Source: Eledone cirrhosa
Lineage: Eukaryota
Assembly (NCBI GenBank): GCA_964016885.1
Contig: CAXHJY010001721.1
Coordinates: 1-64,000, forward strand
Direction of reading: 5' to 3'
Length of the DNA stretch: 64,000 nucleotides
The position numbers and the translations under genes were made by a program. Within the stretch, counting starts at the first letter, position 1. The number at the start of each line of letters is the position of its first letter. The notes under the pieces are model-generated. The model had not been told where the DNA came from, did not search any database, and worked only from the letters and a program-made list of their open reading frames with translations. Shown piece after piece: positions 51,677-52,243 of the stretch.

Positions 51677-52198
51677 TACCTATCTTCCGGCCCTTCTGGA
51701 GAATCGTAAAAGCACATATCGTTATATGCTTTTTCTATGAAAATTAGTAGTGGGCAGACTAATATTCCTTCAATATTCCTTGTCTGGCTTTCTGGAGAAT
51801 AGAGGAAAGGTGTTTCCTCAAAAACCAGTATGACTCTAAAAACCGGTTTGTCTGTGTGTTTACATACAGAATAGCTGGACACTCACAGTAAAGTGACCAG
51901 TGAAAAACTTGGTACATCTACATATGTATACGTGTGTGTATTCATATGCATACTAGTATTTCAGTATACATATGTGGATGTACATTTTTAACTTAATTGT
52001 TTAAGCGTCAGTCATACAAAAGTGAGTTACAAACGAAACGAAATTTAATTTCGTTTCGTTATTTGTTTTTATCGTCTCCGTTGAACCGGTACGTACTCAC
52101 ACTCTATGCAAATTAGTCTGCCCACTACTAATTTTCATAGAAAAAGCATATAACGATATGTGCTTTTACGATTCTCCAGAAGGGCCGGAAGATAGGTG

Positions 52199-52243
52199 AA
52201 TATTGCTGATGAGTTGTAACAACAACGAAAATAGTTCAATATT
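52199..52243 (+). ncRNA. Minimal HHR (family G), stem III C>A
   Basis: aatattg-CTGATGA-gttgtaacaacaac-GAAA-atag-TT-caatatt. Confidence 0.75.

What the first reader, a model, noticed from the sequence alone, without database searches (positions are those of the whole stretch)
51761..52243. The direct copy starts exactly at the predicted ribozyme cleavage site, giving a clean 466-nt monomer
Seen: after the inverted arm ends (~51763), the plus-strand copy begins at caatattccttgtc (51771). This is the first base 3' of the HHR UH site (tt^caatatt, compare 52237). A short pre-copy (aatattcctt, 51761-51770) precedes it. Inference: the reverse-transcribed RNA had an HHR-generated 5' end, which would be genomic evidence of in vivo self-cleavage followed by retrotransposition.
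Basis: partly seen in the sequence, partly recalled or inferred. Interest (0 to 1): 0.75.

Follow-up and report, generated by a model that had tools for sequence, protein, structure and literature searches.

The report
Retrozyme starts rarely at ribozyme cut
This is one of thousands of copies of a small non-coding repeat that carries a hammerhead (predicted self-cutting) RNA motif; this copy does begin at the predicted cut site, but across the genome copies almost always run straight through that site, so the match here is more likely chance than a record of cutting, although a few other copies likely do record it.

Summary
The coordinates are right: the plus arm starts at 51771, the base after the hammerhead GUU. 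But homology extends two bases further (TT), the arm is 1.5 units long, and the pre-copy is a common junction stutter. Genome-wide, 17 real 5' ends lie at -2..+1, against 20 and 8 at two control sites. In 192 loci, 2 of 286 ends lie there (1.8 expected), and 4 of 201 arms reaching the site stop. In a sister family 0 of 77 stop. Two signs of a minority of cleaved templates remain: a replicated twofold excess of ends 11-30 nt downstream of the cut, and one other locus that stops at +1 three times. The element is a non-LTR retrozyme in (TA)n with Penelope-type anatomy: head-to-head arms from two fixed 3' start sites (~230 and 302), one haplotype per locus, and an invariant, covarying ribozyme. 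Most likely a Penelope RT copies a ligated RNA circle from both cut DNA ends. This scan found the two-armed pattern before on other DNA, in this and other genomes.

The parts
50864..51339 (.). (TA)n microsatellite, left target flank
   Evidence: sequence
51337..51763 (-). Inverted arm, 427 nt, monomer 342 round to 302; ends at the 'long' fixed 3' site (302) at 51337
   Evidence: (98.8% identical to the plus arm)
51632..51676 (-). Intact type I hammerhead of the inverted arm (core from 51669; palindromic stem III; predicted cut 51639^51638), read through by the arm
51761..51770 (+). Pre-copy, monomer +2..+11; shares AAT with the end of the inverted arm and TT with monomer -2,-1; junction stutter
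51769..52469 (+). Direct arm, 701 nt (1.5 units), monomer -2/+1 round to 233; ends at the 'short' fixed 3' site at 52469
51771..52236 (+). One 466-nt period (cut site to cut site); folds into a strongly self-paired branched structure whose two ends pair
   Evidence: (-167.8 kcal/mol, z -11.3, 0 of 100 shuffles)
52004..52072 (+). 'Tail' between the two 3' sites (monomer 234-302), holding a 13-bp hairpin at 52032-52060; likely the RT-binding and initiation element (inferred)
   Evidence: analogy with PMC11167929
52106..52113 (+). Octamer-like word ATGCAAAT, kept in the 62%-similar sister family; possible promoter element (label recalled, untested)
52198..52244 (+). Type I hammerhead of the direct arm (core 52206-52212, stem II 52213-52226, GAAA 52227-52230, predicted cut 52236^52237), with two rare changes (52198 in stem I, 52231 in stem III)
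52468..53474 (.). (TA)n microsatellite, right target flank (interrupted by other short elements)

Best explanation
This locus is a two-armed insertion of a 466-nt hammerhead retrozyme in a (TA)n tract, likely written by a Penelope-type reverse transcriptase from an RNA that was continuous across the ribozyme (most likely a cleaved and re-ligated circle), and its start at the predicted cut site is likely a chance 5' truncation. Shown: fixed 3' ends at two sites about 70 nt apart, one per arm; scattered 5' ends; read-through of the cut site; one haplotype per locus; microhomology and stutter at the head-to-head joint; a conserved ribozyme. Inferred: the endonuclease cuts both strands in (TA)n; each DNA end primes reverse transcription internally, one at 302 and one at ~230; both run round the template for a variable distance; the two cDNA ends are joined by microhomology, often with a short re-copied piece. 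Here the cDNA would have passed +1, slipped back on the AA:UU repeat at +10/+11, re-copied +9..+2 and annealed to the other arm by AAT. A small minority of arms (about 5% or fewer) likely comes from cleaved linear RNA.
For: 3' ends: 191 at 302 and 42+36 at 233/228 among 314 arms (loci picked on the 302 end). Of 109 two-armed loci 86 pair a long with a short end and none pair two long ends; 15 of 17 do so in loci picked by similarity alone; sister family 36 long+short, 0 long+long among 57 pairs. 5' ends: 2 of 286 at -2..+1 against 1.8 expected; 4 of 201 arms stop at the first cut site (95% CI 0.5-5.0%); 197 of 269 cross one or more; sister 0 of 77 stop and 76 of 123 cross. Genome-wide 17 ends against 20 and 8 at controls. 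Differences at family-polymorphic sites: 1.05/kb between units and 0.91/kb between arms, against 25-28/kb between loci; 44 rare variants are fixed in every unit of both arms in 22 loci. Ribozyme: 0 of 70 polymorphic sites and 0 of 70 locus-fixed rare variants in the 13 core positions, against 7 of 429 single-unit ones; stem II pair UA 87 / AU 83; the cleavage base is T 287, C 205, G 2. Junctions: 58 of 104 overlap, 24 have inserts of 4 nt or more, 12 of these locally templated. Matches PLE biochemistry: both strands cut and extended, AT-rich target, two internal start sites, HHR cleavage dispensable in vitro (PMC11167929).
Against: The excess of 5' ends at +1..+26 replicates (24 against 13.5 in the two validation sets, P=0.006), 13 of the 17 exact ends fall at the first passage of the site (P=0.047), and L094 and L096 stop at +1 repeatedly, so cleaved templates are probably used sometimes and this locus could be one. 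Circle and uncleaved multimer are not separated: 44 rare variants sit in some but not all units, 15 of them across arms, and a long array shows later DNA-level shuffling that could also homogenise units. The core-conservation counts are small (about 4 core changes expected in the two classes together). One control site (259) lies beside a hairpin hot spot and is therefore a high control. No partner PLE with homology to the unit was found.
Confidence: 0.65

Rival explanations
1. One reading: the template had a hammerhead-made 5'-OH end at +1; RT ran off it, re-engaged once (the pre-copy) and was joined to the other arm. The internal hammerhead was read through because it was uncleaved or disabled.
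For: The end falls on +1 and the pre-copy ends again at +2..+5, two stops near one base, as in L094 (three stops at +1, with a stutter beside one) and L096 (two stops). Replicated shoulder at +11..+30: 21 against 11.0 and 15 against 4.8. The hammerhead that this arm reads through has a broken stem III pair.
Against: No excess at the base. The TT before +1 is explained by a continuous template and is just as common at a control site with the same context (18 of 20 against 11 of 17). Pre-copies in L077, L279, L115 and L116 include bases upstream of the cut. The other arm, of the same haplotype, reads through an intact hammerhead. No other copy shares both changes of this hammerhead, so they look post-insertion.
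Confidence: 0.3
2. The template is an uncleaved multimeric transcript of a young homogeneous array, as proposed for the anole Penelope element, and the ribozyme matters at another step.
For: Read-through of cut sites; PMC11167929 reports unprocessed RNA as the dominant substrate in vitro and no RNA-seq reads at the cut site; some rare variants are shared by only some units (C10 locus).
Against: Within-locus divergence at polymorphic sites is 25-fold below between-locus divergence, and several arrays show 0 differences over 2,000-2,700 compared bases, which needs a one-unit bottleneck at most rounds.
Confidence: 0.25
3. The excess of 5' ends at +11..+30 comes from RT stalling in the long helix that extends stem I, not from a cleaved end.
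For: Monomer 1-30 pairs with ~403-435 in the predicted fold. Other helices give equal or larger peaks (windows from 306 and 248, ratios 2.0 and 1.9, against 1.8). The peak is 10-30 nt short of the cut, with no excess at +1..+10 (6 against 5.2 and 1 against 2.3).
Against: It does not explain three exact stops at +1 with different landing sites in L094. The window ranks in the top 3-4% in both families.
Confidence: 0.4
4. The inverted arm arises by fold-back copying of the first cDNA rather than by priming from the second DNA end.
For: Same haplotype in both arms; some joints are symmetric (for example 208/208, 236/236, 262/262), and one symmetric locus has the same rare variant at mirror positions.
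Against: In this locus neither arm is contained in the other (342 to 302 against -2 to 233); either arm can be the longer one (medians 506 and 469 nt); each arm has its own fixed end at the (TA)n.
Confidence: 0.1

Closest known systems
Metazoan non-LTR retrozymes (Cervera and de la Pena 2020, PMC7229834: search listing, 12 passages and the Discussion read; Li, Clavereau and Pollet 2026, 10.64898/2026.07.22.740005: parts 1-3 of 5 read)
   Same: Non-coding tandem unit of a few hundred nt with one type I hammerhead per unit, a strongly self-paired predicted RNA, dispersed high copy number, and PLE-like ORFs in the same genome.
   Different: In the parts read, neither paper maps insertion ends or describes head-to-head arms with two fixed start sites. 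RNA, circles and cleavage are shown there and untested here.
EN+ Penelope-like elements (Craig et al. 2021, PMC8557442: 12 passages read; Frangieh et al. 2024, PMC11167929: parts 1-2 of 4 read)
   Same: 5'-truncated partial tandems, an adjacent inverted 5'-truncated copy, a 'tail' at one end only, (TA)n or AT-rich targets, two internal RT start sites, both strands extended, hammerhead in the repeat.
   Different: No ORF. The tail is ~70 nt rather than 30-40. The two start sites are split almost strictly one per arm, whereas PMC11167929 saw no difference between strands in vitro.
R2-type elements with a 5' self-cleaving ribozyme (recalled, no call)
   Same: [quoted passage not shown]
   Different: Here at most about 5% of arms stop at the cut and most run through it.

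Membership tests
Metazoan non-LTR retrozyme | Type I hammerhead in each repeat unit | tested here: met
   Motif scan; invariant core and stem II covariation; 412 of 431 sampled passages of the +1 word are preceded by the intact stem III. Rfam gave no hit at gathering threshold.
Metazoan non-LTR retrozyme | Tandem units of ~150-1000 nt, dispersed in many copies | tested here: met
   Period 466; 4,171 exact hits of an internal 30-mer; 2,177 arms ending at site 302; arrays of 1 to about 30 units.
Metazoan non-LTR retrozyme | No protein coding, no LTR/PBS/PPT | tested here: met
   No frame of 120 aa or more lies within the arms; ends abut (TA)n. PBS and PPT were not searched for separately.
Metazoan non-LTR retrozyme | Self-cleavage, and expression as linear and circular monomer RNA | not testable with these tools
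   Needs RNA data or bench work; only indirect genomic signs.
Non-autonomous passenger of a Penelope-like element | PLE insertion anatomy: inverted 5'-truncated copy, one-sided tail, two fixed 3' sites, AT-rich target | tested here: met
   against PMC8557442 and PMC11167929.
Non-autonomous passenger of a Penelope-like element | Sequence shared with the pLTR of an autonomous PLE | tested here: inconclusive
   No similarity above shuffles in 5 of 7 PLE-adjacent stretches; the other two were marginal or due to simple repeats. Only the window and fetched loci were examined, not the whole PLE library of the genome.
   2 of 286 against 1.8; 4 of 201 and 0 of 77 stop; 17 against 20 and 8 genome-wide. 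Only a twofold shoulder at +11..+30.

The most novel reading that the evidence does not exclude
Retrozyme insertions are a two-state fossil record of their RNA: about 95% are rolling-circle copies of one ligated circle, primed from both cut DNA ends at two different fixed sites, and a few percent are run-off copies of the hammerhead-cleaved linear RNA (the +11..+30 shoulder in two families; L094 with three exact stops at +1). That would be genomic evidence of in vivo cleavage and ligation by a PLE-type hammerhead, whose role in transposition is open.
Probability: 0.4. Interest if true: 0.6.

Novelty: new member of a known kind. Interest (0 to 1): 0.35.

Why it matters
The role of the hammerhead in Penelope-type transposition is unsettled: in vitro it is dispensable and no RNA ends were found at the cut (PMC11167929), while the retrozyme model assumes circles as templates without insertion-end evidence in the parts I read (PMC7229834). 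Mapping about 400 5' ends in two families shows that the cut does not normally set the 5' end. It bounds the share of cleaved linear templates at about 5% and points to single-haplotype, read-through copying. This gives a small 466-nt substrate and clear predictions for an in vitro test (circle, linear monomer, multimer). The single-locus coincidence itself matters little, and this scan has noted the two-armed pattern before.

Tried and rejected
Rfam at gathering threshold: 0 hits in the window, so the hammerhead call rests on motif, fold and covariation. TT or T-runs before +1 as untemplated run-off A's: rejected, equally common at the control site. Two different RNA templates for the two arms: rejected, same haplotype. 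Transmission of a dead hammerhead from a source array to this locus: no other copy shares both changes. A common ribozyme-less deleted circle: only 4 junctions in 2 loci genome-wide. Search for an autonomous partner among PLE-like ORFs in the window and fetched loci: none homologous; Pfam gave only one sub-threshold RVT_1 match among 8 proteins, so the PLE labels rest on recalled motifs (GIY-YIG-like, CCHH, RT). A literature link between the octamer word and an snRNA-type promoter (recalled from newt satellite 2) was searched once (3 papers listed, none opened for it) and is unverified. Six paper searches ran; none listed a paper that, by title or abstract, maps retrozyme insertion ends against the cut site; supplements were not read and those of the bioRxiv preprint are closed. 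No earlier notes near this finding.

Full report
Numbering: monomer +1 is window 51771, the base after the hammerhead GUU; -1 and -2 are the two T's before it.

1. Observation. The plus arm begins at 51771 in the same phase as 52237. The 233 nt from each are identical, so the period is 466. Identity continues 2 nt upstream (TT, 51769-51770). The arm runs to 52469 (monomer 233 of the second round) and meets (TA)n; it is 1.5 units long, not a monomer. The inverted arm, 51763-51337, covers monomer 342 round to 302 at 98.8% identity and also ends in (TA)n. The pre-copy at 51761-51770 is monomer +2..+11. Its first three bases (AAT) are also the last three of the inverted arm, and its last two (TT) equal -2,-1. 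A motif scan finds type I hammerheads at 52206 (+) and 51669 (-); Rfam finds none at gathering threshold. The plus-arm ribozyme carries two rare changes: 52198 (6 of 478 units) and 52231 in stem III (2 of 489). The latter occurs in 8 family copies in 7 loci genome-wide, none with the first change besides this one.

2. The family. The own genome (3.0 Gb) holds 4,171 exact copies of an internal 30-mer and 2,177 arms that end at monomer 302 followed by TA. I mapped arms in 192 loci. They were 99 of the first 100 places listed and 94 of the 100 listed; four of the latter repeated, two lay beside a fetched locus, one exact duplicate was dropped and three loci were refetched wider. All were chosen on the 3' end and not on the 5' end. 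Of 314 arms, 191 end at 302, 42 at 233 and 36 at 228. 109 loci have two head-to-head arms: 86 pair a ~230 end with a 302 end, 13 run off the fetched stretch, 10 have another partner end, and none pairs two 302 ends. In loci chosen by similarity alone, 15 of 17 two-armed loci pair long with short. A sister family in the window (448-nt unit, about 62% similar, own hammerhead) has 953 long ends. In 90 of its loci the pairs are 36 long+short, 15 cut by the edge, 6 other and 0 long+long.

3. Genome-wide, a pattern demanding non-family bases at -4 and -3 before the first 18 nt gave 27 hits. By eye, 7 are small indels in a continuous ribozyme, 3 are internal jumps landing on +1, and 17 are real 5' ends, this locus included. 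The same design gave 20 real ends of 23 hits at monomer 259 and 8 of 12 at 349; P=0.31 for an excess at the cut. Site 259 is next to a hairpin hot spot, so it is a high control, and 349 is a low one. In the sample, 2 of 286 unique 5' ends lie at -2..+1 (1.8 expected; one is an internal jump). Of 201 anchored arms that reach the first cut site 4 stop there (95% CI 0.5-5.0%), and 197 of 269 arms cross at least one site. In the sister family 0 of 77 stop and 76 of 123 cross. The cut therefore does not normally set the 5' end.

4. Ends are in excess at +1..+26: 25 against 14.0 overall, 15 against 6.6 in the batch where I first saw it, 10 against 7.4 in the second batch (P=0.21), and 14 against 6.1 in the sister family (P=0.004). 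The two validation sets give 24 against 13.5 (P=0.006). The excess sits at +11..+30 (21 against 11.0 and 15 against 4.8), not at +1..+10 (6 against 5.2 and 1 against 2.3). Windows at other helices are as high, so trimming of a run-off end and stalling in the helix that extends stem I both fit. Thirteen of the 17 exact ends occur at the first passage of the site (54% expected, P=0.047); this locus is a second-passage end. L094 (G000:C1, 218.587 Mb) stops at +1 three times in a row, landing on 438 plus one extra base, on 439, and on the other arm, with a stutter beside one stop. L096 stops there twice. Such loop-skipping joints are rare, 4 in 2 loci. These are better candidates for a cleaved template than this locus.

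5. The pre-copy. Of 104 unique head-to-head joints, 58 overlap by microhomology, 13 are blunt, 9 have 1-3 extra bases and 24 have 4 or more. Twelve of the 24 match the family for at least 8 nt close to an arm start (script criterion, a few borderline). They occur all round the unit. Near the ribozyme, the pre-copies of L077, L279, L115 and L116 include bases upstream of the cut, so a free RNA end is not needed. TT precedes 11 of 17 ends at the cut and 18 of 20 at the control site with the same context.

6. Template. At family-polymorphic sites, adjacent units differ by 1.05/kb and the two arms by 0.91/kb, against 25-28/kb for random pairs of loci. Private differences are equal within and between arms (5.9 and 6.1/kb). 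Forty-four rare variants are fixed in every unit of both arms in 22 loci. Against a strict circle, 44 rare variants occur in some units only, 15 of them across arms, and a long array shows later reshuffling. The ribozyme looks selected: none of 70 polymorphic sites and none of 70 locus-fixed rare variants touches the 13 core positions, while 7 of 429 single-unit variants do. One stem II pair flips between UA (87 loci) and AU (83), and the cleavage base is T or C in 492 of 494 units. These counts are small, but the core is also kept in the sister families. The monomer folds far better than shuffles (z -11.3).

7. Mechanism. Shown: the anatomy and statistics above. Inferred: transcription of tandem units, hammerhead cleavage (the palindromic stem III suggests dimer action; recalled) and ligation give a 466-nt circle. 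A Penelope-type protein binds the hairpin tail (234-302), cuts (TA)n on both strands and extends each end, one from 302 and one from ~230. The cDNAs stop at near-random points (about 0.14% per base) and are joined by microhomology. This matches the anole Penelope protein, which cuts and extends both strands, prefers AT-rich DNA, starts at two internal sites and does not need hammerhead cleavage in vitro (PMC11167929, parts 1-2 of 4 read). It also matches the inverted copy and one-sided tail of PLEs (PMC8557442, passages). Circles as RT templates and PLEs as helpers were proposed in PMC7229834 (Discussion), and a PLE origin of retrozymes in 10.64898/2026.07.22.740005 (parts 1-3 of 5). I found no partner PLE with homology to the unit. 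Nothing about expression or cleavage was tested.

8. Novelty and verdict. This is a new family member of a known kind. The two-armed, two-start-site anatomy was not described for retrozymes in the papers I read (six searches). This scan has reported it several times on other DNA; I saw those notes after my analysis. New here are the 5'-end map, negative at the cut, and the replicated shoulder with a few exact multi-stop loci. Observation partly confirmed; interpretation partly supported; probability that this locus records a cleaved end about 0.3; interest 0.35.

Noticed in passing
L094 (G000:C1:218586383-218589404) and L096 (G000:C1:349633276-349636297): Arms that stop exactly at monomer +1 three times (L094, skipping the ribozyme core twice with different landing sites, plus a 5-6-nt stutter) or twice (L096); best candidates for copies of a cleaved linear RNA.
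   Followed up: partly
window 32302-33355: 448-nt sister retrozyme (about 62% similar), own hammerhead with palindromic stem III, long end at the equivalent site; 953 long ends genome-wide, same two-armed rule.
   Followed up: yes
window 26489-26889: Older-subfamily copy (87%) of the same family on the minus strand, with a GUC-type hammerhead at 26747 and a short end at (TA)n.
   Followed up: partly
window 40725-42035: 310-nt tandem array (4.2 identical units) followed by (AT)n, with a hammerhead-like motif in each unit (read by eye).
   Followed up: no
window 8669 (+), 42333 (-), 53567 (-), 57296 (-), 19249 (+), 18603 (-): Further hammerhead-like motifs from the scan; the 53567/57296 motif also follows a PLE-like ORF near its (TA)n end in L145.
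   Followed up: no
window 13870-16229 (+), 47046-50467 (-), 10270-11141 (-), 4334-5637 (-): Broken Penelope-like ORFs (RT and GIY-YIG-like motifs recognised from memory; Pfam gave only a sub-threshold RVT_1 match); candidates for helper families.
   Followed up: partly
window 34899-37628 (-), 58886-62022 (+): Long LINE-like ORFs with endonuclease- and RT-like motifs (recognised by eye, not scanned).
   Followed up: no
window 52106-52113 and the sister family: Octamer-like ATGCAAAT kept in both families, about 120 nt before the cut site; possible snRNA-type promoter element (recalled analogy, unverified).
   Followed up: partly
L033-L060, L065 (G000:C1:5.738-5.753 Mb): About 31-unit, 14.5-kb arm with variants recurring in non-adjacent units, pointing to DNA-level expansion after insertion.
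   Followed up: partly
L085, L155, L159, L170, L277, L460: A subset of head-to-head joints is symmetric (both arms start at the same monomer position), some at the tail hairpin; one carries the same rare variant at mirror positions.
   Followed up: no
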